Virus genome (UHGV): UHGV-0181040
Direction: 5' to 3' (one strand)
From: a virus
Length of the DNA: 44,151 nucleotides
A program made the position numbers and the translations under genes. This document shows positions 11,457 to 26,344 of this stretch, piece by piece; positions within the stretch are counted from its first letter, which is position 1; the number at the start of each line of letters is the position of its first letter. The notes below the pieces were generated by a model. The model did no database searches, was not told the DNA's origin, and saw only the letters and a program-made list of their open reading frames with translations.

Positions 11457-12158
11457 TTATTTCCTCAGGGCTTTAAGTTGCCGTTCAAATTCGGCAGGGT
11501 TCGATTTATACAGAGCTAAACGCTCCGCTTCGCTCATGTCTTTAAACGCTGGTGCGGCCCCGCCGCCTTTGCTACCGGAAGCCCCGCCGCCGGAAGCTGC
11601 ATTTGCTTTAATCAAATGCGAAAACGCTTTGTGTTCGCGCAGGTATTTGCGGAACTGTTCCTGGTCAGTTGTGATTACGTTTCCGTCTGCGCCAACAAAC
11701 TTAGTAACCACATCATCACCTTCGAACTCAGTCTTAACGAACGGTGTAAGAATGTCTACTGCTTCCGGGGTAATAAAGTCTCCCGCGAAAGAGCCTAACA
11801 CCGCTTTACGTTCGCTGCCGAGGATGCGCTCTGCCATTCTGGAGATGCGACCATCTTTCTCGGCTAGCACCGGGTCATACTGGCTACGAATCGTCTTTTC
11901 GAACTCGTCCATCTTACCAGCGGCTTTTAACGCCTCCTGGTGCGCGCGCTGCCGTTCTTCTTCGGCCTCTTTTGCTTTACGGGCGGCTTCTTTCTTCTCC
12001 GCCAACAACGCTTCCTGATTAGCCTTAAGCCCGGCCACTTCTTTCTCAATCAGTGCCTGAACTTCTTCGGCTGTGAACATTTTCGGCGCATCACCGCCAC
12101 CGGCCTTATCTTCTGCACCAGCTTTTTCCTGGAACGGATAACGTAAAAAACGATTCAT
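11457..12158 (-). CDS. scaffolding protein
   Basis: Charged coiled-coil EEVQALIEKEVAGLKANQEALLAEKKEAARKAKEAEEERQRAHQEALKAAGK. Immediately upstream of the major capsid gene. Probable ATG at 12158 (MNRFLRY). Confidence 0.6.
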   Translation of the reverse strand: MNRFLRYPFQEKAGAEDKAGGGDAPKMFTAEEVQALIEKEVAGLKANQEALLAEKKEAARKAKEAEEERQRAHQEALKAAGKMDEFEKTIRSQYDPVLAEKDGRISRMAERILGSERKAVLGSFAGDFITPEAVDILTPFVKTEFEGDDVVTKFVGADGNVITTDQEQFRKYLREHKAFSHLIKANAASGGGASGSKGGGAAPAFKDMSEAERLALYKSNPAEFERQLKALRK

Positions 12159-12240
12159 AGTCAGTATGTCCCCTGGACGTTGGAACCCGGGCCACCCGGA
12201 TTTACATGTCAAGAATAAATTATTCCAACATGCAAGGCAA

Positions 12241-12504
12241 CTATTCCAGAATATTCCTCACGTAGTCCTGCAACATGAACACTTTCAGTCTCAGTTGCCG
12301 TACACATTCGGCGTTCTGAACGTCAATAGCTAAATCCTCGTCGGCATCACTACTTGGCGGTGCCAGCTTGCACGGCGGCTGCATCATCGTCGTATCCGGG
12401 GATGGAATTTGCGTTTGCGACGGCGCGGGACTTGAGCTGCACGCGCTCAGGGTCAAAAGTGCACACGCTGCGGCCAGGCGTTTTAATGTACTTAACGACT
12501 TCAC
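12241..12504 (-). CDS. Rz1: Rz1-like o-spanin (outer-membrane lipoprotein), overlapping Rz and extending past its stop
   Basis: GTG start with RBS GAGGT. Lipobox LLTLSAC. Pro-rich mature region SSSPAPSQTQIPSPDTTMMQPPCKLAPP. Confidence 0.6.
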   Translation of the reverse strand: MKSLSTLKRLAAACALLTLSACSSSPAPSQTQIPSPDTTMMQPPCKLAPPSSDADEDLAIDVQNAECVRQLRLKVFMLQDYVRNILE

Positions 12505-12736
12505 GGGTAATTACCTCTGATTTCGTCTTGCCTTCGTTGTCAGCGGCTGCGGCCTTTGATTCATCCTGCTGCTGCCGTTGTGTTTTCTTCGCTAACTCAG
12601 CCTGTGCTTTCTGCTGTTGCTGCGAAACGAGATTCGCCCGGCCTTCGTTCCAGCCGGTACGGTACTGATAAACGCCGTGTGTGTAAGCCAGGATGATGAA
12701 ACATGTTCCTGCTACGACAGTTGCTTTAAGATTCAT
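12350..12736 (-). CDS. Rz: Rz-like i-spanin (N-terminal transmembrane helix followed by a periplasmic coiled coil)
   Basis: MNLKATVVAGTCFIILAYTHGVY transmembrane helix, then a Gln/Ala/Lys coiled coil. RBS AAGGAG. Contains an embedded overlapping lipoprotein ORF. Confidence 0.6.
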   Translation of the reverse strand: MNLKATVVAGTCFIILAYTHGVYQYRTGWNEGRANLVSQQQQKAQAELAKKTQRQQQDESKAAAADNEGKTKSEVITREVVKYIKTPGRSVCTFDPERVQLKSRAVANANSIPGYDDDAAAVQAGTAK

Positions 12737-13055
12737 GTTTCTCCTTTCTCGATAAGTAAAGCCCCGCCTTAAAGCGGGGCGCTAGGCCTTATCATTTAAA
12801 TATAGAAACGGCGTAATCTCAGTAAACCAGTTACTTTTTACACAAGCAATAGACTATGGCCCTTCCGAACGCGTCAGCGTAACTACACTCAGGACTAACG
12901 TCCCGCTCCGTTACCTGCCCGCGCCGCGGTCGCTTGTTCATACTTCACAAGCTCAGGAGGAGCTTAGCATATTTTTAGTGAAAAGTCAACTATTCGAATA
13001 GTTTATTCCGACATTTACAATTAAGTGGAATAACTGGAATACGTAAATAAATAGT

Positions 13056-13086
13056 TTGCAGGCACCAATATAATAGGGTACTATTC
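13056..13086 (+). promoter_or_regulatory. promoter TTGCAG-17-TACTAT with operator TAATAG-GGTA-CTATTC (regulon copy 2)
   Basis: A 36-nt block nearly identical to copy 3 at 15227..15257. 24 nt upstream of the HNH ATG. Confidence 0.6.
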
Positions 13087-13109
13087 AGTTAACTTAAACA
13101 GGGGGTTTT

Positions 13110-13649
13110 ATGCTCACTAAACGTTCAGAAGCAATAGCCGCTGGCGATGATTATTACTTCACGGGAAAACCGTGTAAACGTGGGCATGTCGCGAAAAGGC
13201 ATGTCCGCACCGGGTGCTGTGAGTGCACTAAAGAGATACAAAAATCGTACCGAGAACGCAACGTTGTTTCTTGGGCGGCTAAAAACGCAAAATGGAGGCG
13301 AGAAAATAAAGACCGAATAGCTGAAATTGACGCAGAGTACCGTAAGAAAAACAAAACCGCCAGGAAAGCCCAAAGGCTGAAGTATAAAACGGCAAAAAGA
13401 GCCAGGAGTATAAACATCAGGAATGATGAATTTGACCTATTAGTATTCGAAGAAGCGCAGGAGCTATGTCAACTGCGAGCGGGCGAAACAGGTTTCTTAT
13501 GGCATATCGACCACATGCTGCCGCTGCGTGCTAAAACTGTCTCTGGGCTGCATGTCGCAGAAAACATACAAGTTATCCCTGCGGTTCTTAATCTCTTAAA
13601 AGGTAATAAATTAATTTTCACCGAGAGAGGCTCTTGGTTGGCTTCCTGA
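13110..13649 (+). CDS. HNH homing-type endonuclease
   Basis: Cys-rich N-terminus CKRGHVAKRHVRTGCCECTK and HNH core HIDHMLPLRAKTVSGLHVAENIQVIPAVLNLLKGNK. Free-standing on the opposite strand inside the head gene block. Confidence 0.75.
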   Translation: MLTKRSEAIAAGDDYYFTGKPCKRGHVAKRHVRTGCCECTKEIQKSYRERNVVSWAAKNAKWRRENKDRIAEIDAEYRKKNKTARKAQRLKYKTAKRARSINIRNDEFDLLVFEEAQELCQLRAGETGFLWHIDHMLPLRAKTVSGLHVAENIQVIPAVLNLLKGNKLIFTERGSWLAS

Positions 13650-13653
13650 AATT

Positions 13654-13678
13654 AAGGCCCCATAACGGGGCCTTTTAT
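13654..13678. terminator. bidirectional terminator AAGGCCCC-ATAAC-GGGGCCTT
   Basis: Same stem as the 6296, 15621 and 38544 hairpins, followed by TTTAT. Confidence 0.6.
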
Positions 13679-14139
13679 CATTCAGGCTTCGTAACCTTCG
13701 CCGCTTTGCTTACGGCCTCTACACCATCGGCATCAGTAACTTTAACGAAGTATTCACCAACCGCGTTAACCGTCAGGGACAAGGCCTCTTCTGGAGCGTT
13801 TACCACTTCCTTACCGTCCTTATACCAGGTCAGGGTATATGGCGCTTTGCCCGCCTTAACTTCGACAGTGATGGCCGCGTTGCCGTCTGCCAGTTCAGCG
13901 TCTTTCGGTTGCACAGAGAAATACACATCGCCTGCGTCCGCCAGATACGGAATTTCGTAAAGCATACCCGCCGCAGGCAACGCAATACCGGTCTTGTCTG
14001 CAAACGGCATATCGTCTACTGGTGTACCCAGTACACTTTCGTCTTCAATAAACACCACGTTCTCACCAGAACCGGACACGCGAGCGTACTGGACAACACG
14101 GCGCGATGGCACATCAGTTACTTTAAAAAAGCCCATCAT
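13678..14139 (-). CDS. Ig-like (I-set) domain protein, possible decoration or accessory protein
   Basis: C-terminal motif YTLTWYKDGKEVVNAPEEALSLTVNAVGEYFVKVTDADG. ATGA coupling to the upstream head morphogenesis gene. Confidence 0.45.
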   Translation of the reverse strand: MMGFFKVTDVPSRRVVQYARVSGSGENVVFIEDESVLGTPVDDMPFADKTGIALPAAGMLYEIPYLADAGDVYFSVQPKDAELADGNAAITVEVKAGKAPYTLTWYKDGKEVVNAPEEALSLTVNAVGEYFVKVTDADGVEAVSKAAKVTKPE

Positions 14140-15239
14140 TATTCCCCTTTCAGATAATCAGCAACACGTTTATCGAGTTCCGCCATCTGCTTAAGCGTCA
14201 GCGGATTCCCAAAACCATCTACAGATATTACGCGAAACTCTTCCGGCGATATACCGCTGTTACGGAAAATCTTACCGCGAACAGGGCCAAGCGCCTGGTC
14301 CTGAAACCACGCCGGTTGTTGTTTCAGGAACTCGTAATAGGTGGTGTCCGCGCTTACCTGGGTACCGCCGTTCGCACCCTTAGCCGTGCGTTTTGCACCT
14401 TTATCGAGGAAGTCGAACTCGGAACTTATCACCGGGGCTGTGGTACTTCGACAATTTGGATGCGCTGGCGGCATCGGACCCTTACCGATTTCCCACGTCA
14501 TTCCGTCTCTGGCCCTGCAAATCGTACTGGTGCGGCTGTCCAGCGTTGACACCCACTCGTACTTCTCGATAATGTCGTCGTTCTGGCGATACGTCTCGTT
14601 ACGGGCTTCGTTGGATATGTGGGACAGCGCGGTGCGGATTACTGTAGCTGCATTACGCTCGGAGATGTCCGCCAGCCCACCAGCGCCAACAACATTCTTA
14701 ACAATCTGCCGTGTTGTCTGGCCTTGTACAAAGCCCATCTTAACGCCGGTTACAAGGCGCGATACTTCAGTTTCACCCCAGCCTGACATCAGCTTAGTGA
14801 AGTCAACAGGCTTGTCACTTAGCGACAGCGGCTGAAACTCAGCTGCGGCCCATACCTGTTCGGCGGTGGGTGTAACAAATTCCGCGTTAACGTTGGTGGT
14901 CAGCGTTTTTACGTTCCACTCCGCCTCATACGCCGCCAGTTCCTTGAGGTCTTCTGTCAGCTTTGTTTGCCAGTCACCAGTAAGTCCTGTCAGTGCTTCT
15001 TCGAGGTCGCGTAACAATTTATTCAGTCGCGCTGTGCTACGACCATCGTCACCGAATAACAGCACCTGCTGTTTGATTTCGTCCCGCATTTCCCGAATGA
15101 ATGGTGCGAGGTCTTTCACTTCACCAGATGCGGTGCGTTGCAGCCATATCTGGTGGCTGATTAGGGATGTAAGTAAGCTCATAGGCCCTCCTGTAGTATC
15201 GCCAGTGTAACGCATAAAAATAATATTTGCAGACACCAA
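14139..15239 (-). CDS. head morphogenesis protein (Mu gpF / SPP1 gp7-like)
   Basis: C-terminal TSTICRARDGMTWEIGKGPMPPAHPNCRSTT signature. Directly downstream of the portal gene. Confidence 0.7.
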   Translation of the reverse strand: MVSANIIFMRYTGDTTGGPMSLLTSLISHQIWLQRTASGEVKDLAPFIREMRDEIKQQVLLFGDDGRSTARLNKLLRDLEEALTGLTGDWQTKLTEDLKELAAYEAEWNVKTLTTNVNAEFVTPTAEQVWAAAEFQPLSLSDKPVDFTKLMSGWGETEVSRLVTGVKMGFVQGQTTRQIVKNVVGAGGLADISERNAATVIRTALSHISNEARNETYRQNDDIIEKYEWVSTLDSRTSTICRARDGMTWEIGKGPMPPAHPNCRSTTAPVISSEFDFLDKGAKRTAKGANGGTQVSADTTYYEFLKQQPAWFQDQALGPVRGKIFRNSGISPEEFRVISVDGFGNPLTLKQMAELDKRVADYLKGE

Positions 15240-15257
15240 TATAATAGGGTACTATTC
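15227..15257 (+). promoter_or_regulatory. promoter TTGCAG-17-TACTAT with operator TAATAG-GGTA-CTATTC (regulon copy 3)
   Basis: Near-identical to copy 2. 30 nt upstream of the ATG at 15287, with RBS AGAGGAGGAA. Confidence 0.6.
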
Positions 15258-15286
15258 AGTTAAACGACAAAGAGGAGGAATAAAAC

Positions 15287-15616
15287 ATGATTAATGCTAA
15301 AGAAGAGTTGCTCGCCCATCTGGATGGTAAAGATGTAGTTAAATGCGCCTGGTTTGCGGACTATGATGCGGATGACGCGGATTACGATTTCGTTGAGGGG
15401 AGTAAATGGCTCCTGCGGGAGAATTACTCCCGCGGAGAATGGGAAAGCCTAATGGCTGAACTTGATTTTGAATATCACAACGGTCACGGCATTCAAAACT
15501 TCTTCGGGGTAATTTGGTACGAAGATGGTACATGGTCTTCTCGCGGAGAATACGATGGTTCTGAATGGTGGGAATATAATGTCGTGCCGGATATGCCGGA
15601 AGAACTTAAGCGCTAA
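15287..15616 (+). CDS. small highly acidic Trp/Tyr-rich protein; candidate DNA-mimic-type anti-restriction or anti-defence protein (cargo gene)
   Basis: 109 aa, rich in D/E and W (ADYDADDADYDFVEGSKWLL..., EWWEYNVVPDMPEE). Has its own operator-controlled promoter and terminator. On the opposite strand between the portal and head morphogenesis genes. Confidence 0.45.
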   Translation: MINAKEELLAHLDGKDVVKCAWFADYDADDADYDFVEGSKWLLRENYSRGEWESLMAELDFEYHNGHGIQNFFGVIWYEDGTWSSRGEYDGSEWWEYNVVPDMPEELKR

Positions 15617-15620
15617 AATT

Positions 15621-15645
15621 AAGGCCCCTTTCGGGGCCTTTTCTT
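15621..15645. terminator. bidirectional terminator AAGGCCCC-TTTC-GGGGCCTT
   Basis: GC stem plus TTTTCTT. Lies between the convergent acidic-protein and portal genes. Confidence 0.65.
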
Positions 15646-17137
15646 ATTGCTGCTGTTGGCCTTGCGGAGATTGTTCCTGTCTTGCTGTAGCAGGAATCTC
15701 TCCAGCCACCTGAGCAACAGTACCTAACGGCAGCGGTGCGTCTTCGATAGCGCTCTGAATATCCTCGTCGGTCCAGTCAGTTACGCCCGCCTTACGCAAT
15801 GCTGCGTAGTATGCGGTAGCTGGTAGCAGGCCTGCGTTAATATCCGCCATCCACTGTGCACGGTCCTGAGCGGTCATTGGCTGCAGGAAGAACTCCATAT
15901 TCAGTTTGAACTCGATTTCAGTACCGTCACTAAGCCCTAGCATCGCTGCTACCCAGCGCAGCGCATCGGTATACGCCATACTTACATTACGTGCAATTGT
16001 CGCCATAACGGACGTATCTGCGCCGCGTTGCAGGCGGGCTGATTCAGCGGTGATTTGCTGCGTCGGGGTGATAAGCTGCGCGCCAATCTGGATTGCCTGA
16101 TTCTCTTTATCCAGCATGTTCTGTTTGGCGAGGTTGTTCTCTCCGGCCTGGACAAGAAACGCATTGCCGCCGTAGCCAATGTTATGGCCCGAACGTGAAC
16201 CCATGCGCACGCCGTGTGGGTTGGCTTCGGCCCACTGTTCCATGCTCATATTCTCACCAGGGGCGATGAACAGAGTGGGCTGGCCTACAACGAAGCTGGA
16301 CTCCTCATTGTCCGCGCTGTTGCGGAAATGTCCGATGTTTAGCTCAGCCAACGGCAGCAAAGGTGCATCGTCGATGGTCGCATCGTTGTTGCTCGCCCCA
16401 ATGAACGTGAAGGGAATTTTGCCGCGCAGCTGTTCTCCGAGTTCCGGGAAGATTTCGATTACGTCACCCTGAGCACCACCTTCGGCGTCGAAGCGGTAAA
16501 TGCGCTGGCGGTAGCGCCCGTCAATCAAATCGAGAACGCGGTATTGTTCGCCGAATTTTGTTTCGAACTCCGCGCCCGGTTCTGAGTATTCCCACACCTC
16601 ACGCAGCACGACCGTTGTCACACGGTTAACAGAACCGATGCGTGTCAGTCGCCAGTTGATGATGTTCTCTGCGGTATAGAATGCGATTACCGGGTTTAAT
16701 AACCCCGCGTTCTGCTCTGCCGCCGTTGCCGCGGCTGTCTCTGGGGCGTCCACCAGCAACCCGCCGCGGCCAACCGAGTCAATCTCCATCAGCGTGTCCT
16801 GCGCGTGCTGCCACAACCCGACACCAGAACCGTCGGCATTACGTAACAGGTACTCCAGTTCAGGCGGGATAATTTGCTCGGGGTCTTTACGCATCACTGA
16901 CCCCACCATCCCGGCCAGAGTACGTTTGGTGAAGTTGTAGCAGATAGCGCCGTTCTCATATTCTTCCTGGCGCTGCGCAGCGTAGGTAGGGTCCGGCTCG
17001 TTCTTCCCGACGTTGCGAAGATAGCGGATAAGGTCGCCTTCCAGCGCGTGGCGTACCTTCTGCCATTTATCGAAGTGGTGCAGCCATTCCCGGTGTTTTG
17101 TCTTAACACCCTGATTCTGACCGTTCATAGTTAACAT
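15644..17137 (-). CDS. portal protein
   Basis: 497 aa, immediately downstream of the terminase large subunit; size and position are typical. Confidence 0.75.
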   Translation of the reverse strand: MLTMNGQNQGVKTKHREWLHHFDKWQKVRHALEGDLIRYLRNVGKNEPDPTYAAQRQEEYENGAICYNFTKRTLAGMVGSVMRKDPEQIIPPELEYLLRNADGSGVGLWQHAQDTLMEIDSVGRGGLLVDAPETAAATAAEQNAGLLNPVIAFYTAENIINWRLTRIGSVNRVTTVVLREVWEYSEPGAEFETKFGEQYRVLDLIDGRYRQRIYRFDAEGGAQGDVIEIFPELGEQLRGKIPFTFIGASNNDATIDDAPLLPLAELNIGHFRNSADNEESSFVVGQPTLFIAPGENMSMEQWAEANPHGVRMGSRSGHNIGYGGNAFLVQAGENNLAKQNMLDKENQAIQIGAQLITPTQQITAESARLQRGADTSVMATIARNVSMAYTDALRWVAAMLGLSDGTEIEFKLNMEFFLQPMTAQDRAQWMADINAGLLPATAYYAALRKAGVTDWTDEDIQSAIEDAPLPLGTVAQVAGEIPATARQEQSPQGQQQQ

Positions 17138-17149
17138 TGAATAATCCTC

Positions 17150-18421
17150 TTAAAGTGCGAAAGTCACCGGGACGTTAATAACTGGTTTGCGAATCGGCAT
17201 TTCATACGCGATAGGGTATGTGGTTCCGTCATTCTGGTGGTCCACGCCGCCAGATTTATCCGGTTCGCCGTTCTTGTCGTAGGCTTGCTGCTCCAGGCAT
17301 CGCGCCGTAACTGGGCAAGCCTGTTCATTAATCATGACCATACCAGATTCAAGCGCCTTATTCATCGCAGATACGCGGTCTTTAACCGGTGGGTTTGTCG
17401 ATTTAGCGCGTACTTCGAAACCGGCCTGCTGTAGCTGGGCTATGTCTGAGGTACTGGCGTTGTTGCTTTTACGGTTCTTTCCGCTGGCGTCAGGGTACAT
17501 AACGATATAGTGGCCATTACTTTTCCATCGCTCTGTTATAGCCCGCACTACATCAGGCGTATCGAACATATCAACCAACTCGGCAACAGCGTGCCATACC
17601 TTACCACGTTGCACGTAAACTGTGCTCGCCATGTGGCCTACGTTAAAGTCCTGCCCAATATACAGAGTCTCTCCAGGTTTGATTGTTTCGCGACTGCTGT
17701 TTTTCCTGCGGTCGTAAGCATAGTAGACCGTCCCTGCCGTGAGGTTTACGAACTCGCCGTTAATGTAGGCATCAATCAATTGCCCCGGGTAGGTGTCGCG
17801 CAAAGACTGCACATAATCTTCTGGCAGAAACGGGTTAGACAGGGTGGACGCCTGAATCATCTCGTAGCCTGGATTCTTTTTAACAACCCAGCGGTCGTGT
17901 ACGAAACGGAATCCTTCCGGCGTAGTGAACACGGAAACGGTATTAGCCGGTTTCGGTGTAATAGGTTTATACGTCCGCGGCAACTGACGGTTACGTGCAA
18001 TGACTTTGTTCCACGCGTGCTCGGCGTGTTCCATGTTCAGGGTGTCCAACTCGTCGATTTTTGCACGAAACGATTCGTAGCCAACAATTCGTGCTGGATT
18101 ATCAAGTGTACGCAGGACAAAATCCCCGAATTGCCCTGAAGACGTATAGATTATGTTGTCAGACTTATTATATTTGTACCTGATACCCCAGTCCGTCAGC
18201 TTCTCTTCCATACGAGGCGCAAGAATAAGGCGTACCAGGTCGTAAGTAGGCTCGTACATGGCGATGATAGAATCGCTACCGCCCTCCATGCTGTCCAGTA
18301 GCGCGGAGTTACACATAACCTCTGATTTCCCGGTGCCGAATCCGGCCACGAATGCCGGGAACTTGCAATGCATACCGAGAAATGCGCCTTGTGGTTCCGT
18401 TGCCGTGATATTAACGTTCAC
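17150..18421 (-). CDS. terminase large subunit
   Basis: Walker A VAGFGTGKSE near the N-terminus, 423 aa, followed by the portal gene. Confidence 0.9.
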   Translation of the reverse strand: MNVNITATEPQGAFLGMHCKFPAFVAGFGTGKSEVMCNSALLDSMEGGSDSIIAMYEPTYDLVRLILAPRMEEKLTDWGIRYKYNKSDNIIYTSSGQFGDFVLRTLDNPARIVGYESFRAKIDELDTLNMEHAEHAWNKVIARNRQLPRTYKPITPKPANTVSVFTTPEGFRFVHDRWVVKKNPGYEMIQASTLSNPFLPEDYVQSLRDTYPGQLIDAYINGEFVNLTAGTVYYAYDRRKNSSRETIKPGETLYIGQDFNVGHMASTVYVQRGKVWHAVAELVDMFDTPDVVRAITERWKSNGHYIVMYPDASGKNRKSNNASTSDIAQLQQAGFEVRAKSTNPPVKDRVSAMNKALESGMVMINEQACPVTARCLEQQAYDKNGEPDKSGGVDHQNDGTTYPIAYEMPIRKPVINVPVTFAL

Positions 18422-18920
18422 CAGACACCACCTTAATAGTTACTTCACTGATTGGCTCGTCGCGCACTTCTTCGGCAGCAACAGTTTTATTCAGCCCCAG
18501 CTTCGCGGCAGCAAACGTAGCGGAGATACCGGCAGCCCCTGTCTCGGTGAAGTATGCCTCTTCCAGCGCCTGTGCGGTTTCATAGGCTTCCGCAAACGCG
18601 GGAATCTCACGCAGCCACAGCTTAATAATCGGGATAGTGACGCCGATGTGTAAGGCGAAGCGGGCCAGTGATGGCGGTTTATCCTGAATCAGCGGGCGTT
18701 CGTCACCCTTAGACGTGGGCACAAGTTCCCACGACGTGCGGTCGAAGAACTCGATTAACTCATCGCAATAGTCCGGGTCCCACAACGCTGCGGAATTACG
18801 GGACGATTGATAAAGGCTCTGTTTGCCCCGCGGCCGCCTGCGGCGACGGTTTGCACTAACAGCTTCTTCATGTGCAGCTTGCACCACCTCTGGCGATGGC
18901 TGCTTGAGTTTCAGCTTCAT
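18411..18920 (-). CDS. terminase small subunit
   Basis: HTH-like segment LARFALHIGVTIPIIKLWLREIPAFAEAYE. Overlaps the terminase large subunit start. ATG 18920 follows the RBS AGGGG; the track ORF begins on an upstream GTG. Confidence 0.6.
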   Translation of the reverse strand: MKLKLKQPSPEVVQAAHEEAVSANRRRRRPRGKQSLYQSSRNSAALWDPDYCDELIEFFDRTSWELVPTSKGDERPLIQDKPPSLARFALHIGVTIPIIKLWLREIPAFAEAYETAQALEEAYFTETGAAGISATFAAAKLGLNKTVAAEEVRDEPISEVTIKVVSGER

Positions 18921-19013
18921 AGAATCCCCTTGCATATGCGCCTGACCATCAGAGCGCACCAGACGCGCCCTACGCGTCTAAAGGGATTATATAGGGGGAT
19001 TGGGCGGGATGTA

Positions 19014-19040
19014 CAGAAAAGCCCTCCGTAGAGGGCTTGT
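19014..19040 (-). terminator. rho-independent terminator (minus-strand sense) ending the leftward early transcript before the late operon
   Basis: Stem AAGCCCTC-CGTA-GAGGGCTT with a T-tract on the minus strand. Lies between the last early gene and the terminase small subunit gene. Confidence 0.55.
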
Positions 19041-19097
19041 ATCAGTTGTATAAGCCGTGGCGTGGCGCTCTTTTACCATCGCCGCAGTAGTGGTCGT

Positions 19098-19319
19098 TAG
19101 CTACGGCAATAGCCAAGGCGTTGGGGATGACTAGTAGCCTCATTTTAAGAATGTCAACAGGGCATCGGCAATACCTGATGTTACCAGGCCAAAAAACATA
19201 GGCCACCAGATATATCCCGGCAGATTGGTAAATGTTTCTGGCTTAGTACAGAAAGCCAGTAAAAACGCGAACCAAAACACTATATAACTAATGCTGCTGA
19301 GTAATTCTAAAATGCTCAT
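19098..19319 (-). CDS. small membrane protein (two predicted transmembrane segments, 73 aa), not listed in the ORF track
   Basis: ATG overlaps the upstream stop (ATGA). Sequence MSILELLSSISYIVFWFAFLLAFC...WWPMFFGLVTSGIADALL. Confidence 0.35.
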
Positions 19320-19552
19320 TCCCCACTCTCCTTTTTAACAATGCGTTGCTCTGTTTTAGTGATACCACGGCGCGTGAATAACACCGGGCTTGTCTTAACG
19401 TGCGTCATCAGGCGATTGTTATAAATTACGTGGCGCTCGCAATCAATGTCTCTGCTGTACTTCGCAATCGTCATTTCGTTGATGCCGGTTTGTCGGCATG
19501 TCTCCGCCATCGTGCCAAATTCTTTAATCAGGTTCGGAATGCTGGTAATCAT
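19316..19552 (-). CDS. putative small DNA-binding protein
   Basis: The 78-aa sequence LIKEFGTMAETCRQTGINEMTIAKYSRD has HTH character. Confidence 0.3.
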   Translation of the reverse strand: MITSIPNLIKEFGTMAETCRQTGINEMTIAKYSRDIDCERHVIYNNRLMTHVKTSPVLFTRRGITKTEQRIVKKESGE

Positions 19553-19767
19553 TCTGGGGCAATCTCCACTATGGTTATAATCGCAACCTTCGAATTGGGT
19601 GGCATACGCGAGGCCACATCTGATTCAATCGCTTTAATATCCTCTACTGTCAGTTTTTCGCCCTTTTTAGGTGACGCCGTACGGTTGCCGTAGCCTGTGC
19701 CCGCGACGCTAGTCCAGGCATAACTGATAAAGAAACGTTTCATCATAAGAAATTCCTCGTTGTCCAC
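19549..19767 (-). CDS. hypothetical early protein
   Basis: 72-aa ORF coupled within the leftward gene chain. Confidence 0.3.
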   Translation of the reverse strand: MDNEEFLMMKRFFISYAWTSVAGTGYGNRTASPKKGEKLTVEDIKAIESDVASRMPPNSKVAIITIVEIAPE

Positions 19768-19909
19768 ATCGCATTTGGATATTTGTTATCTCGGTCCTGC
19801 ACTACGGCAATCATGTTACCGCGCTGCACAAGGCAAAAGTGCCGCTGTTGTTCTCCGTTGTAGCGACGCCAGATTGCTTCTTCGATTGCTGCGTTAATGT
19901 CACTGAACA
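19742..19909 (-). CDS. hypothetical small protein (55 aa)
   Basis: An ATG-initiated ORF with a weak G-rich RBS. Below the track size cut-off. Confidence 0.2.
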
Positions 19910-20160
19910 TACCCAATACCCCACATAACTAACACTCCAACCGCTACACCAATCAAAATTGATACTGTTGTGTTAGTCCACGCCCGTTGGCTGCGCAAAG
20001 TTTCGGCGTTCTCCAGAATGTCGCGAACACGCGTTAAGTGTGCAATCTCCAGTTTCGCAGCGGTCAGTTCCTGGGATGCTTTTGAATACTTACCGTTAAT
20101 CTTGTCCAATGCCTTCTTAAGGTCTTTGTTGTTCTTCTTGAGTTGCTCAATCTGTTCCAT
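19900..20160 (-). CDS. coiled-coil protein with a C-terminal transmembrane anchor
   Basis: MEQIEQLKKNNKDLKKALDK coiled coil followed by TTVSILIGVAVGVLVMWGIGYVQ. Confidence 0.35.
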   Translation of the reverse strand: MEQIEQLKKNNKDLKKALDKINGKYSKASQELTAAKLEIAHLTRVRDILENAETLRSQRAWTNTTVSILIGVAVGVLVMWGIGYVQ

Positions 20161-20162
20161 AA

Positions 20163-20354
20163 CTACCCCACTATCTCATCGCCAAGCCACGCCGTTTCTC
20201 GTATATCATCGACCACACAAGCGGCGTGTTCACGGCTAATTGCAAAAATGTAGAAGCTGAACTTCTTCCCGTCGGCGTCGATGTGGTTAACCGAGTAAGG
20301 TTTCCACAGGACGCCGTCAATAACTACCGGCTCAGGCGCTTTCATCGTGAGCAC
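20163..20354 (-). CDS. hypothetical early protein
   Basis: 63-aa ORF within the coupled chain. Confidence 0.3.
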   Translation of the reverse strand: MLTMKAPEPVVIDGVLWKPYSVNHIDADGKKFSFYIFAISREHAACVVDDIRETAWLGDEIVG

Positions 20355-20535
20355 CGTAATCGAACTCAGGAGGAAGGAGTAGCTTCTGCTCTTCTTCCTT
20401 CAATTTCCCGAGCAAGAATTTAAACGCCTCCAGTTGAAACTCACCGTTAATCGACAGTTGCCCGCCTAACGTCTGTTTCTCCGACTCAAGTACCAGGACA
20501 CGGCGCTCAAGTGATGCGATTGTGATTTTAGGCAT
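20332..20535 (-). CDS. hypothetical coiled-coil early protein
   Basis: ATG overlaps the upstream TAA (AATGCCTAA). 67 aa. Confidence 0.3.
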   Translation of the reverse strand: MPKITIASLERRVLVLESEKQTLGGQLSINGEFQLEAFKFLLGKLKEEEQKLLLPPEFDYGAHDESA

Positions 20536-20701
20536 TGGTGTCGCCTTTGTTCAGGTTGAAGCGGTTAATCAGTTCACGGCGGCGTTCCATAAGATTATCT
20601 ACCTGCCGTAAGTGGTGCTCAATGTGGGCGTCAATCCATGCTATTTCAGATTCACCGGTCGCGGATTCGACGCTAAGTTTCTCGTATTCGTTGTTAGTCA
20701 T
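20528..20701 (-). CDS. hypothetical small protein (57 aa)
   Basis: ATGA overlap with the upstream ORF. Below the track cut-off. Confidence 0.25.
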   Translation of the reverse strand: MTNNEYEKLSVESATGESEIAWIDAHIEHHLRQVDNLMERRRELINRFNLNKGDTNA

Positions 20702-20856
20702 TCTTTACGCTCTCCCCACATGCGATTGAGATACTTGTTCTTGTCCGGCCCCGGGAAACTGTTGCGTTTCATCAGTTCCTCACGTGTCGGGAACGGGGTG
20801 TGACTAACTTTACGGCCTACTCGTAATGGCTGGCTTGCTGGGCCTTGTTCACTCAT
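20698..20856 (-). CDS. hypothetical small protein (52 aa)
   Basis: ATGA-coupled on both sides. Confidence 0.25.
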   Translation of the reverse strand: MSEQGPASQPLRVGRKVSHTPFPTREELMKRNSFPGPDKNKYLNRMWGERKE

Positions 20857-21002
20857 TTCTTCTCTCCTGCATATGCTTCTTTCAGTGTCTGCATCGCGGC
20901 GAACCAGAACGCGTCAGCAGGAATATTGCCGCTCAGGTTATTAACCGCAATACGTGCCATCAGTTGTGCGTCATTAAATGCTTCAATATCTGTGATTTTC
21001 AT
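20853..21002 (-). CDS. hypothetical small protein (49 aa)
   Basis: RBS AAAGGGG, 7 nt before the ATG at 21002. Confidence 0.25.
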
Positions 21003-21264
21003 TTTCCAAACACCCCTTTAGTTTTCAGATTATGACGGTAGAACTGCATAACATGCTCATTATGGAAGTTACTTGATGGGTATTCTTTCATGACACCGCC
21101 ATTTCATGTCCAAAGATTAAAGCCGAAACATAACGGTTTACTTGCTTAGTAACTTTGTCGTTATTGCGTTTCTGTGAACGGCGGAACCAGAGGTTCATGC
21201 GGTATGTGCGGCGGTTATGTTTCTCTACAAAGTCCGCTAATTTCATCTTATTTTTCATTTCTGT

Positions 21265-21477
21265 TTACCCCGCGTTAAATGAGCCAAGTACGATGCCGCT
21301 TTCTTTCGGTTTCTTGATTTCTGTAACTTTTACTTCGACGTTGAAGTTATTCATGGTTATTGGGTCATCCTTAGCACGGACCAGGCTCAATGCTTCATCG
21401 GGGGACTTCGCCCACACCACAAAAGAATCGTATTGGTCATAGCCACACCAGGAGGCTTCTACTAAATATAATTTCAT
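21265..21477 (-). CDS. hypothetical early protein
   Basis: 70-aa ORF downstream of the promoter at 21511..21539. RBS GGAGTAGAGAAG. Confidence 0.35.
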   Translation of the reverse strand: MKLYLVEASWCGYDQYDSFVVWAKSPDEALSLVRAKDDPITMNNFNVEVKVTEIKKPKESGIVLGSFNAG

Positions 21478-21510
21478 CTTCTCTACTCCGTTCTCGTTGT
21501 CGATGGAGTA

Positions 21511-21539
21511 AATATAATTGGTGTAAGAGTAATAGTCAA
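21511..21539 (-). promoter_or_regulatory. sigma70-like promoter TTGACT-17-TATATT (minus strand)
   Basis: Same hexamers as the promoter at 32062..32090. The spacer carries CACCAAT and a partial operator half-site TAATAG. Confidence 0.45.
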
Positions 21540-21565
21540 CTAGTCATTGCAGAAAATAGATAAAA

Positions 21566-21597
21566 AAAATCCCGGCTGGGTCAGGGCCGGGATAAAA
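21566..21597 (-). terminator. strong rho-independent terminator (minus-strand sense) after the endolysin gene
   Basis: Plus-strand run of A(8) followed by TCCCGGC-TGGGTCAG-GGCCGGGA, giving a run of U(8) on the minus-strand transcript. Confidence 0.7.
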
Positions 21598-21657
21598 CTG
21601 GAGAGCAGAGGGATGGAACAGGAGGTGATTTAAGTATCGTCGGATTAGTCTTAAGTG

Positions 21658-22164
21658 TCAACCTTTCACCGCGCGCCCGATAGCCTCAGCCTCTTGCCAC
21701 GGTTTACCGTCGAACAGCGCCAGACGACCAGCTACGCGACGGCGCAGGCCCAGAACAGGCTCGAGTTTACCGGTTTTCGGGTTGCGCTGGTTAATGAACT
21801 GACTCATCTTGTGCCGTAAAGTAGGGATGTCACCCTGCCGTAGTGCCTTACCGGTTCCGGTGGTAGCCGCGATAACGCCAGTTCCTGCGTTAAACACCAG
21901 GTCAACAACGGCATCGAACTGAGCCTGGGTCAGAGACGGATGGGCTACTTCATCGACTGCTTTCACCGCCCACTGCATATCGCGGTTCAGTAACAGCAAC
22001 CCCTGGCCCTCAGTAATCTTCTGCCCTTCATACACATCCGGCCCGGTATGGCCCCAGCCTATAGTCCAGTATTTTTCGTTCTTTGTTGCTTTGTATGCAG
22101 TTCCGCGAAACTTTTCCCACGCTTTCTTGAACTGCAATCCATTATCTGAAATATTTCGAGACAC
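21658..22164 (-). CDS. endolysin, GH24 (P22 gp19 / T4 lysozyme-like) family
   Basis: YWTIGWGHTG motif and overall similarity to P22-type lysozymes. GTG start at 22164 after the RBS GGAGGA; the track ORF extends to 22215. Confidence 0.7.
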   Translation of the reverse strand: MSRNISDNGLQFKKAWEKFRGTAYKATKNEKYWTIGWGHTGPDVYEGQKITEGQGLLLLNRDMQWAVKAVDEVAHPSLTQAQFDAVVDLVFNAGTGVIAATTGTGKALRQGDIPTLRHKMSQFINQRNPKTGKLEPVLGLRRRVAGRLALFDGKPWQEAEAIGRAVKG

Positions 22165-22414
22165 GCTTATATCCTCCGTAGGACAGCCACGCCTGACGAA
22201 TCTGGCGCAGCGCAACTAATGTGATTAATGTCTCAGGCAGCGTTGGTGACATGCTGCCCTGTAACAGGTGGATACACCCGGCGGCGCAGACAATAGCTGT
22301 CAGGATATAGAGCACCCGACCAAATAGCCCGTCGTCAACGCTGGGATGATACACATTAAACAGCGATGTGCCTCCGATTGCCAGCATACCGCCGAACCAG
22401 AATAACTCATTCAT
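22142..22414 (-). CDS. second small membrane protein of the lysis cassette (2 transmembrane segments; holin or antiholin-like)
   Basis: ATG 22414 after the RBS GAGGAGG. Sequence MNELFWFGGMLAIGGTSLF...VLYILTAIVCAAGCIHLL. Confidence 0.4.
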   Translation of the reverse strand: MNELFWFGGMLAIGGTSLFNVYHPSVDDGLFGRVLYILTAIVCAAGCIHLLQGSMSPTLPETLITLVALRQIRQAWLSYGGYKRVSKYFR

Positions 22415-22715
22415 CTGGACCTCCTCGACGCGCGATGTATTCTCCGGCGACGATACCGGAGAGACGGGAATAGATAGGCATCCAGAGAACAGCAATAATG
22501 AAGCCCAGGCCTGCGATTTCACGGTCGCCCGTGATGCCAAACCATTGAGCCGCGAGAGGTGCGCCAAATACGGCGCAAGTGAAGCCGGTTGCGATAAAGC
22601 AGAAGCCGTCGATAGGGCCAGAAATAACGGACTTATGTTGTCGTAGCCCGATGACCCCTCCGGCGAGTGCGGCAGCGAGAAGCCACCCTGTCACTGTTTC
22701 AGTAAATTTATCCAA
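22407..22715 (-). CDS. holin (class I-like, three transmembrane segments, charged C-terminus)
   Basis: Three hydrophobic helices and a C-terminal RRGGPDE. Immediately upstream of the other lysis genes. Confidence 0.65.
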   Translation of the reverse strand: MDKFTETVTGWLLAAALAGGVIGLRQHKSVISGPIDGFCFIATGFTCAVFGAPLAAQWFGITGDREIAGLGFIIAVLWMPIYSRLSGIVAGEYIARRGGPDE

Positions 22716-22790
22716 GATGAATCCTCCAGGTGCGTATTAAGTATGCAGTAACTGGAGGATACCACGGGTAGGAATTATCTTAATAACGGT

Positions 22791-23084
22791 TTATTTATGT
22801 CTCCAGATGTATTGTCGCCTCTGCGGTTTCGTCGGAATATCATCGTATCCCAGCGATTTCCAGTAATTAAATAGCCGATTAGCGATTGCAGCACGTTCCT
22901 GTGTTTTAAACTCACCAAGATTAACGGCCTTCCCGTTCTGGAACCCGCAGGCGCGGATGGCTTTACGCCGTTCTTGTATCTCCGGGAACAGCGCGTTACG
23001 GCGACGCTTGTGTATCCGGGTGTTCGCTCTCGGTGACAGCGGCGCAAGGCCGCTTCGTTTCAGGATGTCAGTTGCGAGGCTCAT
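22791..23084 (-). CDS. hypothetical basic protein
   Basis: ATG at 23084 overlaps the upstream stop (ATGA); the track ORF begins upstream. Confidence 0.3.
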   Translation of the reverse strand: MSLATDILKRSGLAPLSPRANTRIHKRRRNALFPEIQERRKAIRACGFQNGKAVNLGEFKTQERAAIANRLFNYWKSLGYDDIPTKPQRRQYIWRHK

Positions 23085-25955: not shown

Positions 25956-26344
25956 GAGAATAGTTACGTTGCCGTTGTGATTCTTTCGTTTAATGGGGTA
26001 GCGAAACGAAACGAACGTGGTGCCGAAGGCACCAAGAGTGAGTGAGTGAGCTTGCGAATCAATAACTTATATCATGTGGTAAAATTTAAATAGACGGGGG
26101 CTTTCTTGCGACTTGCTGTTACTTTGAGGAAACTTAGATACTGACGTTGTCGAAGTGACTCTCAGCGCCCGTCCTTTGGGGCCGGGCTTTGGTCACCAGA
26201 GACTTAAGAATAATGTTTCTAAGTAATTCAGAACTAGTGTCCTTCGATACGTTGATTTTACAGCTACATTTTATTTTGTCAATAGGTTGTGTTCGGTTAT
26301 TGTAGGTGTTATAGTTGTTTCACTTGATAAAGAGGGCTTGTAAA

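What the first reader, a model, noticed from the sequence alone, without database searches (positions are those of the whole stretch)
12241..22715. Split lysis system: holin, second membrane protein and endolysin in the early-left operon; Rz/Rz1 spanins 10 kb away among head genes
Holin (22407..22715), a two-TM protein (22142..22414) and a GH24 endolysin (21658..22164) are contiguous and followed by a strong terminator. No spanin follows them. Instead, a textbook overlapped Rz/Rz1 pair (TM plus coiled coil, and a lipobox LSAC Pro-rich lipoprotein starting on GTG inside Rz) sits between the Ig-like protein and scaffold genes. It is preceded by a hairpin with a U-rich tail (12761..12780). The placement implies different timing or dosage control for spanins than for holin and endolysin. 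It also places lysis genes upstream of the terminase in an operon otherwise early in character.
Basis: partly seen in the sequence, partly recalled or inferred. Interest (0 to 1): 0.55.

Follow-up and report, generated by a model that had tools for sequence, protein, structure and literature searches.

The report
Split phage lysis genes, already catalogued
This phage keeps its outer-membrane-breaking genes (spanins) among its head genes, about 9 kb from its holin and endolysin genes; the layout is real but is the normal, already annotated arrangement for this whole phage group.

Summary
The window is a complete genome of a Kagunavirus-like siphophage (subfamily Guernseyvirinae). It has two holin-like genes (22715..22407, 22414..22142), a GH24 endolysin (22164..21658) and a strong terminator (21593..21562). 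No spanin follows them. An overlapped Rz/Rz1 pair (12736..12350, 12504..12241) lies between the Hoc-like and scaffold genes.

The pair belongs to the "Jersey" overlapped spanin family of Kongari et al. 2018, which lists K1G, K1H and K1ind1-3. It has the same 155-bp overlap and the same Cys45 and Cys67. The GenBank record of phage Shashou annotates all five genes the same way.

The split is conserved in all 50 related loci examined. Rz homologues occur in 662 phage records. The one Dhillonvirus genome inspected has the same layout. Across relatives the Rz1 frame, its start codon, its ribosome-binding site and its lipobox cysteine are all kept.

The reading that the split implies different timing is unproven. 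One coarse RNA-seq study of a relative puts the lysozyme and the head genes in the same "middle" class. The 12761..12780 hairpin is conserved with compensatory changes. Its "U-tail" is the 3' arm of a lower stem, so it is probably not a plain terminator. It belongs to a conserved, structured 330-bp non-coding leader that nobody has described.

The parts
22407..22715 (-). Holin-like membrane protein, 102 aa, TTG start, three hydrophobic segments. Its homologue in phage Shashou is annotated 'holin/antiholin class I'.
   Evidence: phrog_2359 holin, E 6.4e-29; hydropathy; SD GGAGG seven nt upstream; Shashou annotation.
22142..22414 (-). Second holin-like membrane protein, 90 aa, two TM segments. 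It overlaps the end of the first gene by 8 nt and the start of the endolysin gene by 23 nt. Its Shashou homologue is annotated 'antiholin/holin class II'.
   Evidence: phrog_2508 holin, E 5e-33; hydropathy; Shashou annotation. An upstream lipobox-like extension of this frame is not conserved.
21658..22164 (-). Soluble GH24 (T4-lysozyme-type) endolysin, 168 aa, GTG start, with no signal or SAR segment.
   Evidence: PF00959, E 1.8e-24; phrog_7 and phrog_33703; PDB 8hp8 'Endolysin mtEC340M', E 4.8e-70; hydropathy.
21633..21661 (-). Promoter-like site P1, TTGACA-17-GATACT, overlapping the endolysin stop codon. About 55 nt of CU-rich sequence follow it, up to the terminator.
   Evidence: Scan, 10 of 12 matches. 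Hexamers and spacing are kept while the spacer sequence differs in Jersey-like loci.
21562..21593 (-). Intrinsic terminator that closes the holin-endolysin transcription unit: 8-bp stem, 9-nt loop, T7-T8 run.
   Evidence: Sequence. Conserved in 20 distinct versions, with a compensatory stem change GGC/GCC to GGT/ACC in Jersey-like loci. A terminator is annotated after the endolysin gene in Shashou.
21511..21539 (-). Promoter-like site P2, TTGACT-17-TATATT. It would restart transcription into the small genes, the terminase genes and the head genes.
   Evidence: Scan, 10 of 12 matches. Hexamers and spacing are conserved while the spacer diverges.
13654..13674 (.). GC-rich hairpin directly after the Hoc-like gene stop, shared with the convergent HNH gene. 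A terminator is annotated directly after the Ig-like (Hoc-like) gene in Shashou.
12737..13043 (-). Conserved non-coding leader upstream of Rz. It holds TTATTCC repeats, a 16-bp palindrome, weak promoter-like sites, a 96-nt three-tier hairpin (12937..12842) and the hairpin next to the ribosome-binding site.
   Evidence: Alignment of seven Kagunavirus- and Jersey-like loci; repeats; individual folds; pair counts. The 36-aa ORF annotated here in relatives does not behave like a gene.
12751..12793 (-). Upper stem 12780..12761; lower stem GATAAG (12793..12788) paired with CTTATC (12756..12751). It ends 4 nt before the Rz ribosome-binding site.
   Evidence: Scan. Fold of -22.3 kcal/mol, z = -2.8. 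Both tiers are kept in Jersey-like loci with different sequence. 99% of cells are paired and two pairs change on both sides.
12350..12736 (-). i-spanin (Rz-like), 128 aa. It has an N-terminal TM helix, a long helix with two poly-Q runs, and one periplasmic Cys.
   Evidence: phrog_2536, E 2.6e-56; hydropathy; AF2 single-sequence helix over residues 3-63; Jersey i-spanin family description.
12241..12504 (-). o-spanin (Rz1-like) lipoprotein, 87 aa. GTG start in the +1 frame inside Rz, lipobox LSAC with Cys22, Pro-rich, Cys45 and Cys67, 155-bp overlap with Rz.
   Evidence: phrog_1267, E 8.3e-21, covering residues 9-86. Frame, start codon (GTG or ATG), SD and lipobox Cys are conserved in about 50 loci. 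Codon-position diversity in the Rz1-only part is 0.095 / 0.039 / 0.278. Matches the Jersey o-spanin description.

Best explanation
This is an ordinary three-step lysis system for a Gram-negative host, encoded at two places in a Kagunavirus-type genome.

**Mechanism (inferred).**
1. The two small membrane proteins act as holin plus antiholin or co-holin. They accumulate in the inner membrane and, when triggered, release the soluble GH24 endolysin.
2. The endolysin degrades the peptidoglycan.
3. The Rz/Rz1 complex, an inner-membrane protein joined to an outer-membrane lipoprotein, spans the periplasm. Once the wall is gone it is free to disrupt or fuse the outer membrane.

**Why the split is tolerated (inferred).** The spanin genes are fixed residents of the head-morphogenesis module: terminase, portal, Mu-F-like protein, Hoc-like protein, Rz/Rz1, scaffold, capsid. 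They are inherited with that module and are probably transcribed with the scaffold and capsid genes. Spanins are held inactive by intact peptidoglycan until the endolysin acts. They only need to be present before the holin fires, so they do not have to be co-transcribed with holin and endolysin.

**Shown here:** the gene identities, the overlapped architecture, selection on the Rz1 frame, conservation of the split, and the terminators between the two loci.

**Not shown:** the lysis mechanism itself, which gene of the pair is the holin, and the transcription pattern.
For: - **Family matches.** All five proteins match lysis families.
- **Published spanin family.** Rz/Rz1 matches the Jersey overlapped family, which includes K1G, K1H and K1ind1-3. 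The 155-bp overlap, the poly-Q runs and Cys45 and Cys67 are all the same (sequences).
- **Rz1 is under selection.** The frame is open in all roughly 50 relatives. The start codon is GTG or ATG at the same position, behind GAGG or GGAGG. The lipobox changes between LSAC, LASC, LSGC, LNGC and ITGC but always keeps the Cys. The Rz1-only region varies mainly at third codon positions of the Rz1 frame, 0.095 / 0.039 / 0.278.
- **Conserved synteny.** The order Hoc-like, variable gap, Rz, Rz1, scaffold, capsid holds in all 50 loci. Holins and endolysin lie 8-9.7 kb upstream wherever the locus reaches that far.
- **Breadth.** Rz homologues occur in 662 phage records.
- **Dhillonvirus.** Phage Bas84 has the same split, with spanins between the head-morphogenesis and scaffold genes and holins plus endolysin before the terminase.
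- **Published gene lists.** Papers on Golestan and SeF1 list the same separated genes.
- **Precedent.** T4 is a known case of unlinked lysis genes.
Against: - No member of the Jersey spanin family has been tested by complementation in any paper I found. The spanin function rests on architecture and family membership.
- Pfam and NCBIfam have no model that recognises the holins or the spanins.
- The single-sequence structure model of Rz is confident only for residues 1-60, so a coiled coil is not demonstrated.
- Co-transcription of the spanins with scaffold and capsid is inferred. A conserved structured leader upstream of Rz could impose regulation of its own.
Confidence: 0.85

Rival explanations
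1. The split is a regulatory device. Holin and endolysin would be made from an early or middle leftward operon that stops at the 21593..21562 terminator. The spanins would be made at a different time or level from their own promoter and structured leader.
For: - Conserved terminators lie between the two loci.
- No conserved promoter lies directly upstream of the first holin gene, so the holins probably share a transcript with the upstream small genes.
- The strongest leftward promoter-like site is at 26282..26255.
- A conserved 330-bp non-coding region with repeats and structured RNA precedes Rz.
Against: - Temporal RNA-seq of Kagunavirus K1B4 places the lysozyme in the same 'middle' class as NinH, the Mu-F-like protein and the capsid. 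That experiment is coarse.
- Spanin timing is not rate-limiting in the standard lysis model (my own knowledge).
- The promoter-like site 12826..12799 is not conserved in Jersey-like relatives.
- The upstream small genes have no known function, so 'early' is an assumption.
Confidence: 0.2
2. The hairpin at 12780..12761 is a Rho-independent terminator. It would insulate or attenuate transcription entering the spanin genes from the upstream head genes.
For: - The stem has 8 bp, 7 of them G-C, and is followed by TTTACTTATC. The terminator scan flags it.
- It folds at -22.3 kcal/mol with z = -2.8.
Against: - The 'tail' pairs with GATAAG upstream and forms a lower stem.
- Jersey-like relatives keep both stem tiers with different sequence but have TTAGCGTATAAAG after the stem, which is no U-tract.
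- The Shashou record annotates terminators nearby but none at this position.
- A terminator just before the scaffold and capsid genes, which need high expression, would require a strong promoter downstream of it. None was found.
Confidence: 0.2
3. The Rz1 frame is an untranslated chance ORF, or the pair has another envelope function such as superinfection exclusion rather than spanin function.
For: - I found no direct experiment on this spanin family.
- Several GenBank relatives annotate only a 48-aa product without a signal peptide.
Against: - Third-position-dominated variation in the Rz1-only region.
- Conserved start codon and ribosome-binding site, and a lipobox Cys kept through sequence turnover. 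This includes a 'separated-architecture' relative with an unrelated signal peptide.
- The phrog_1267 match covers the signal-peptide region.
- The 48-aa annotations are the start-codon errors that Kongari et al. describe as common.
Confidence: 0.05

Closest known systems
'Jersey' family of overlapped two-component spanins (Kongari et al. 2018, PMC6139136). Members include Jersey, SETP3, SE2, K1G, K1H, K1ind1-3, HK578 and EP23.
   Same: i-spanin with an N-terminal TMD and two poly-Q runs. o-spanin in the +1 frame with a 155-bp overlap. Cys at positions 45 and 67 of the o-spanin (compared).
   Different: Nothing of substance. This is a new sequence variant, 88-96% identical in Rz protein to the closest metagenomic and isolate relatives.
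Escherichia phage Shashou (MK931440, Kagunavirus), annotated by the Center for Phage Technology
   Same: Same five genes in the same two places. A 3-TMD 'holin/antiholin class I' gene of 309 nt, a 2-TMD 'antiholin/holin class II' gene, an endolysin followed by a terminator, then a 387-nt i-spanin and a 264-nt o-spanin 'with N-terminal lipobox' between the Ig-like and scaffolding genes.
   Different: Rz protein is about 89% identical. Shashou has no HNH gene in the gap between the Hoc-like gene and Rz. Its announcement paper does not comment on the split.
Phage lambda S-R-Rz/Rz1 lysis cassette
   Same: The same three functional classes and, by inference, the same three-step mechanism. The lysis genes lie upstream of the terminase genes.
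   Different: In lambda all four genes are contiguous in one late transcript and Rz1 is fully embedded in Rz. Here the spanins are about 9 kb away among head genes and Rz1 is overlapped rather than embedded. There are also two holin-like genes instead of lambda's dual-start S gene (the lambda dual start is from my own knowledge).
Phage T4 dispersed lysis genes (t, e, pseT.3/pseT.2)
   Same: [quoted passage not shown]
   Different: In T4 the holin and endolysin genes are also unlinked from each other and the spanin genes are of the 'separated' type. Here holin and endolysin stay together.
Dhillonvirus (HK578-like) phages, for example JohannBuxtorf_Bas84
   Same: The same split: holin-holin-endolysin before the terminase, and the i-spanin/o-spanin pair between the head-morphogenesis and scaffold genes. 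An opposite-strand gene follows the spanin pair, before the scaffold gene.
   Different: The spanins are only distantly related, with 29-38% of Rz aligned in tblastn. The i-spanin overlaps the end of the head-morphogenesis gene, so there is no Hoc-like gene and no non-coding leader upstream.

Membership tests
Two-component spanin, i-spanin subunit (Rz-like) | Small protein with a single N-terminal transmembrane domain and a largely helical periplasmic domain | tested here: met
   Hydrophobic segment at residues 5-23. The AF2 single-sequence model gives a helix over residues 3-63 with pLDDT 74-90. phrog_2536 matches at E 2.6e-56 over the full length. A coiled coil as such was not tested.
Two-component spanin, o-spanin subunit (Rz1-like) | Outer-membrane lipoprotein signal: a short signal peptide ending in a lipobox with an invariant Cys, and no Asp at position +2 | tested here: met
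   The sequence is MKSLSTLKRLAAACALLTLSA-C22-S. The Cys is kept in all relatives while the lipobox sequence varies. The +2 residue is Ser.
Two-component spanin, o-spanin subunit (Rz1-like) | Short, proline-rich periplasmic domain with Cys residues available for intermolecular disulfides | tested here: met
   The mature 66 aa contain 10 Pro (my count from the sequence), plus Cys45 and Cys67 as described for the Jersey family.
Overlapped spanin gene architecture (Jersey family) | The o-spanin gene starts inside the i-spanin gene in the +1 frame and extends beyond its stop; the overlap in phage Jersey is 155 bp | tested here: met
   Rz1 starts at 12504 and Rz stops at 12350, giving a 155-bp overlap. 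Most Kagunavirus-type relatives show the same.
Two-component spanin (function) | Required for outer-membrane disruption; complements lambda Rz/Rz1 mutants | not testable with these tools
   This needs a complementation assay. I found no such test for any Jersey-family member in the papers searched.
Holin | [quoted passage not shown] | tested here: inconclusive
   Size, TM segments, position and PHROG holin families are all met for both genes. Which one is the holin and which the antiholin is unknown. The Shashou record itself hedges with 'holin/antiholin'. In Jerseyvirus S10 the gene that overlaps the lysin gene reduced viability when expressed.
GH24 phage lysozyme (PF00959) | Match to the family profile above the curated threshold | tested here: met
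   86.9 bits against a cut-off of 22.3. Aligns end to end with the solved endolysin 8hp8 at E 4.8e-70. The catalytic residues were not checked individually.
Contiguous lambda-type lysis cassette | Holin, endolysin and spanin genes adjacent in one transcription unit | tested here: not met
   The spanins lie 8.9 kb downstream of the endolysin stop, with at least two terminator hairpins in between.
Intrinsic (Rho-independent) terminator, for the 12761..12780 hairpin | GC-rich stem-loop followed directly by a single-stranded U-tract | tested here: inconclusive
   The stem is present. The tail TTTACTTATC has 6 T in 10 positions but pairs with GATAAG upstream. Jersey-like homologues keep the structure and lack a U-tract.

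The most novel reading that the evidence does not exclude
The spanin genes may be the leading genes of a separately controlled capsid operon. They sit behind a conserved 330-bp non-coding region. That region contains likely protein-binding repeats (TTATTCC twice plus an inverted copy, and a 16-bp palindrome). It also contains a 96-nt three-tier RNA hairpin and a second hairpin that abuts the Rz ribosome-binding site. No Rfam family matches any of it. It could be an undescribed cis-regulatory or RNA-processing element, for example an RNase III site, that sets spanin, scaffold and capsid dosage.

Separately, the conserved block after the endolysin (promoter-like site, 55-nt CU-rich leader, terminator, second promoter-like site) could encode a phage small RNA of about 64 nt.
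Probability: 0.25. Interest if true: 0.4.

Novelty: already known. Interest (0 to 1): 0.15.

Why it matters
**As a discovery it matters little.** The spanin pair belongs to a published family. The five-gene annotation exists in GenBank. The split layout is shared by hundreds of Guernseyvirinae genomes and by the one Dhillonvirus genome inspected.

**Practical value: annotation.** Some GenBank relatives (EM1, fEg-Eco06) truncate the o-spanin to a 48-aa product with no signal peptide. PHROG family phrog_5672 matches only residues 41-87 of the o-spanin, so it too lacks the signal-peptide region. The comparative evidence here fixes the start at the GTG (or ATG) codon 39 codons upstream of the annotated ATG.

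**Biological value.**
- The lineage is a natural case in which spanin genes have stayed inside a head-assembly module across a deep divergence. That fits the view that spanins need no co-regulation with holin and endolysin.
- Two conserved non-coding blocks flank the lysis loci. They would be worth mapping by transcriptomics in a well-studied host.

Tried and rejected
1. **Lipoprotein-like extension of the 90-aa holin frame.** The frame can be extended upstream to a GTG at 22522, giving MKSQAWASLLLFSGC. The genome-wide lipobox scan picked this up. Relatives have stop codons or lose the hydrophobic core, so it is a chance ORF.
2. **Small RNA after the endolysin.** I tested the CU-rich leader as an sRNA seed with an RNAduplex scan of both strands. 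No phage target scored better than shuffled seeds: -29.5 kcal/mol against -29 to -34.
3. **Known RNA genes.** Rfam at gathering threshold on the whole window found nothing. At E <= 1 on 12200..13700 it gave one chance snoRNA hit. No tRNA or tmRNA was found.
4. **Repeated phage promoter or operator motif.** The conserved sequences upstream of Rz are single-copy in the genome.
5. **The 36-aa ORF annotated upstream of Rz in Shashou and fEg-Eco06** (window 12941..12831). It is frameshifted or missing in many relatives and shows no third-position excess. I treat the region as non-coding.
6. **A lambda pR'/tR'-type Q antitermination module** as a reading of the promoter-leader-terminator block. The -10-like sequence after the promoter is not conserved in Jersey-like loci. 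No Q-like protein was recognisable among the upstream ORFs, which all match PHROGs of unknown function. A second conserved promoter follows the terminator.
7. **Pfam and NCBIfam for the holins and spanins.** No useful hits.
8. **K1B4 RNA-seq supplements.** None of the listed supplementary tables is a per-gene temporal-class table, and none was opened.
9. **BASEL collection paper.** It has no discussion of lysis genes.

Full report
**What the window is.** The 44,151-bp window is a complete or near-complete siphophage genome of the genus Kagunavirus (subfamily Guernseyvirinae). The lysis and head region, 12000..23000, matches Escherichia phages NTEC3, EM1, SCS92 and fEg-Eco06 at about 89-90% nucleotide identity over 80% of its length. 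It matches 492 phage records in total, mostly Salmonella and Escherichia phages. Genes run leftward on the minus strand from a divergent control region near 26,300. They pass through small ORFs, the lysis genes, more small ORFs, then terminase, portal, head and tail genes. The replication genes run rightward from 26,848.

**Check of the observation.**
- The 102-aa ORF at 22715..22407 starts on TTG, 7 nt after a GGAGG. It matches phrog_2359 'holin' (E 6e-29) and has three hydrophobic segments.
- The 90-aa ORF at 22414..22142 matches phrog_2508 'holin' (E 5e-33) and has one strong and one weaker TM segment.
- The 168-aa product of 22164..21658 starts on GTG and matches Pfam PF00959 at 86.9 bits against a cut-off of 22.3. 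It aligns end to end with the solved endolysin 8hp8 (E 4.8e-70). It has no N-terminal hydrophobic segment, so it is a soluble, holin-dependent endolysin.
- The 'strong terminator' is real: ATCCCGGC, a 9-nt loop, GCCGGGAT, then a T-run, at 21593..21562. The consensus scan missed it only because it allows loops of 3-8 nt.
- Nothing resembling a spanin follows. The next ORF is a 70-aa protein of unknown function.
- Rz at 12736..12350 matches phrog_2536 'Rz-like spanin' over its full length (E 2.6e-56).
- Rz1 at 12504..12241 matches phrog_1267 (E 8e-21, residues 9-86) and phrog_5672 (E 4e-30, residues 41-87).
- Rz1 starts on GTG in the +1 frame, 9 nt after a GAGG. It overlaps Rz by 155 bp and runs 109 nt past the Rz stop.

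**The Rz1 frame is a real gene.** I collected 48 related loci from viral metagenome contigs and added annotated isolates.
- In all of them the frame is open.
- The initiation codon at the same aligned position is GTG or ATG.
- It is preceded by GAGG or GGAGG.
- The lipobox changes between LSAC, LASC, LSGC and LNGC, and is ITGC in one relative of the 'separated' architecture. It always keeps the cysteine.
- In the 109-nt part of Rz1 beyond Rz, nucleotide diversity by codon position in the Rz1 frame is 0.095 / 0.039 / 0.278. That is the signature of purifying selection on a translated frame.
- In the overlap the pattern flattens in the mature part of Rz1 (0.117 / 0.171 / 0.178), as expected for two constrained frames.
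- A genome-wide scan for lipoprotein signal sequences found Rz1 and one other candidate, an upstream extension of the 90-aa holin frame. That extension is not conserved in relatives and I reject it.

**It is already known.**
- Kongari et al. 2018 (PMC6139136) define a 'Jersey' family as one of the overlapped two-component spanin families, with 27 members. These include Jersey, SETP3 and SE2, and the Kagunavirus type phages K1G, K1H and K1ind1-3.
- They report a 155-bp overlap in phage Jersey, two poly-Q stretches in the i-spanin, and invariant Cys45 and Cys67 in the o-spanin. The window's proteins show exactly these features: QQQQ and QQQ runs in Rz, and Cys22, Cys45 and Cys67 in Rz1.
- The GenBank record of Kagunavirus Shashou was annotated by the Center for Phage Technology. 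It carries a 387-nt 'i-spanin' ('similarity to phage K1g overlapping inner membrane spanin') and a 264-nt 'o-spanin' ('contains N-terminal lipobox') between the Ig-like and scaffolding genes.
- Elsewhere in that record are a 'holin/antiholin class I' gene (three TMDs), an 'antiholin/holin class II' gene (two TMDs), an 'endolysin glycoside hydrolase' and a terminator.
- Papers on Kagunavirus Golestan (holins ORF66 and ORF67, endolysin ORF68, spanins ORF7 and ORF8) and Jerseyvirus SeF1 (spanins gp9 and gp10, holins and endolysin gp63-65) list the same separated genes without comment.
- Other records (EM1, fEg-Eco06) truncate the o-spanin to 48 aa starting at Met40. Kongari et al. describe this kind of start-codon error as common.

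**The split is a lineage trait.**
- In all 50 related loci the order Hoc-like gene, variable gap, Rz, Rz1, scaffold, capsid is kept.
- Wherever the locus reaches far enough, the two holin genes and the endolysin lie 8-9.7 kb upstream, before the terminase.
- A tblastn search with Rz finds 662 phage records, 504 of them covering at least 80% of the protein.
- The distantly related spanins of Dhillonvirus phage Bas84 also lie between the head-morphogenesis and scaffold genes. Its holin-holin-endolysin cluster lies before the terminase.
- The arrangement therefore predates the divergence of these groups and travels with the head module.
- Unlinked lysis genes have a classical precedent in T4.

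**How it most likely works.** I infer the standard three-step pathway from the families involved.
1. One or both small membrane proteins form the holin, and possibly an antiholin.
2. Triggering releases the cytoplasmic GH24 endolysin.
3. Once the wall is degraded, the Rz-Rz1 complex disrupts the outer membrane.

From established knowledge of lambda lysis, spanin complexes accumulate during late gene expression and are restrained by intact peptidoglycan. They only have to be present before the holin fires. That explains why linkage to holin and endolysin is dispensable. Which of the two membrane proteins is the holin is unresolved. In Jerseyvirus S10 the gene that overlaps the lysin gene reduced viability when expressed.

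**Timing and the 'early operon'.**
- In its favour, the holin-endolysin block ends at a conserved terminator. No conserved promoter lies immediately upstream of the first holin gene, so these genes probably share a transcript with the preceding small ORFs.
- Also in its favour, a second hairpin follows the Hoc-like gene, so the spanins are in another transcription unit.
- Against it, the small ORFs on both sides match only PHROGs of unknown function.
- The only temporal RNA-seq I found for a Kagunavirus (K1B4) puts the lysozyme in the same 'middle' class as NinH, the Mu-F-like protein and the capsid. It does not mention spanins, and its time resolution is coarse.
- Lysis genes upstream of the terminase are also the normal lambdoid late-operon order (my own knowledge).

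**The hairpin before Rz.**
- The 8-bp GC-rich stem at 12780..12761 is real and folds with z = -2.8.
- Its 'U-rich tail' CTTATC pairs with GATAAG at 12793..12788.
- Jersey-like relatives keep both tiers with different sequence (TATACG/CGTATA, and GCCCGGC or GCCCGAC in the upper stem). After the stem they have TTAGCGTATAAAG, which is not a U-tract.
- On the upper stem 99% of cells are paired, against 37-56% when the partner columns are slid. Two pairs change on both sides.
- A plain intrinsic terminator is therefore unlikely. An RNA structural element 4 nt upstream of the Rz ribosome-binding site is more likely.

**The conserved leader upstream of Rz.**
- The hairpin is the last part of a 330-bp non-coding region. 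This region is conserved across Kagunavirus- and Jersey-like loci whatever is inserted upstream of it.
- It contains TTATTCC repeats with an inverted copy, a 16-bp palindrome and weak promoter-like sites.
- It also contains a 96-nt three-tier hairpin at 12937..12842. Every variant folds into this structure on its own.
- On that hairpin 93% of cells are paired, against at most 43% when slid. Four pairs change on both sides. The structure was derived from the window sequence, which inflates this comparison.
- The 36-aa ORF annotated there in two relatives does not behave like a gene.
- Rfam has no match. Its function is unknown. I list a processing or stability element, or a regulated-promoter leader, as the most novel reading.

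**The block after the endolysin.** The terminator sits between two promoter-like sites, TTGACA-17-GATACT and TTGACT-17-TATATT. Their hexamers and spacing are conserved while the spacers diverge. The first site, the 55-nt CU-rich leader and the terminator could specify an RNA of about 64 nt. I found no phage target for it.

**Verdict.** The system is a known member of a known family, in the arrangement normal for its lineage. The interpretive claims about timing are untested. Interest is low. The only unexplored material is the pair of conserved non-coding blocks next to the two lysis loci.

Noticed in passing
window 12737..13043 (- strand): A 330-bp non-coding region upstream of Rz, conserved across Kagunavirus- and Jersey-like phages. 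It holds two TTATTCC repeats plus an inverted GGAATAA, the 16-bp palindrome AACTATTCGAATAGTT, a 96-nt three-tier hairpin (12937..12842) with compensatory changes, and the hairpin next to the Rz ribosome-binding site. There is no Rfam match and its function is unknown.
   Followed up: partly
window 21505..21662 (- strand): A conserved block after the endolysin stop: promoter-like TTGACA-17-GATACT, a 55-nt CU-rich leader, a strong terminator, then promoter-like TTGACT-17-TATATT. It could encode a small RNA of about 64 nt. No phage target scored better than shuffled controls.
   Followed up: partly
window 12831..12941 (- strand); L051 1296..1406: A 36-aa 'hypothetical protein' is annotated upstream of the i-spanin in Shashou and fEg-Eco06. 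It is intact in the window but frameshifted or absent in many relatives, and it shows no third-codon-position excess. It is probably not a gene and overlaps the structured hairpin.
   Followed up: yes
L001 2745..2891; L002 1842..1988; PHROG phrog_5672: The o-spanin is annotated as a 48-aa product starting at Met40, without its signal peptide, in the EM1 and fEg-Eco06 records. phrog_5672 (47 positions) matches only residues 41-87 of the window's o-spanin. The correct start is the GTG or ATG 39 codons upstream.
   Followed up: yes
window 13110..13649 (+ strand), hairpin 13654..13674: An HNH / endonuclease VII-like gene (phrog_1035, E 5e-30) sits on the opposite strand in the variable slot between the Hoc-like gene and the spanin leader. 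EM1 carries a Dam methylase there, and other relatives have nothing. The slot varies from about 320 to 1120 bp among 50 loci, so it is an insertion hot spot.
   Followed up: partly
window 15287..15616 (+ strand), terminator 15621..15640: A 109-aa ORF on the opposite strand (phrog_3972, unknown function) has its own AAGGCCCC...GGGGCCTT terminator. It is inserted between the portal and Mu-F-like head-morphogenesis genes. EM1 has only a 70-bp gap there. It looks like a moron-type insertion.
   Followed up: no
related loci L003-L049 (table): There is mosaicism among otherwise close relatives. The large terminase is either about 99% or about 55% identical to the window's. The endolysin is either 93-99% or about 74% identical. 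The scaffold and capsid genes are replaced in a subset (66% identity or no hit). In fEg-Eco06 the Mu-F-like gene carries an intein.
   Followed up: no
window 19900..20160 and 19140..19319 (- strand): Two small membrane proteins lie between the lysis cassette and the terminase. One is 86 aa with a long charged stretch, probably helical, and a C-terminal TM segment; it has no PHROG hit. The other is 59 aa with two TM segments and was not searched against any family library. Their function is unknown.
   Followed up: no
window 22142..22567 (- strand): The 90-aa holin frame is open for 51 codons upstream. From a GTG at 22522 it would encode a lipoprotein-like signal, MKSQAWASLLLFSGC. This is not conserved in relatives and is a chance ORF.
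   Followed up: yes
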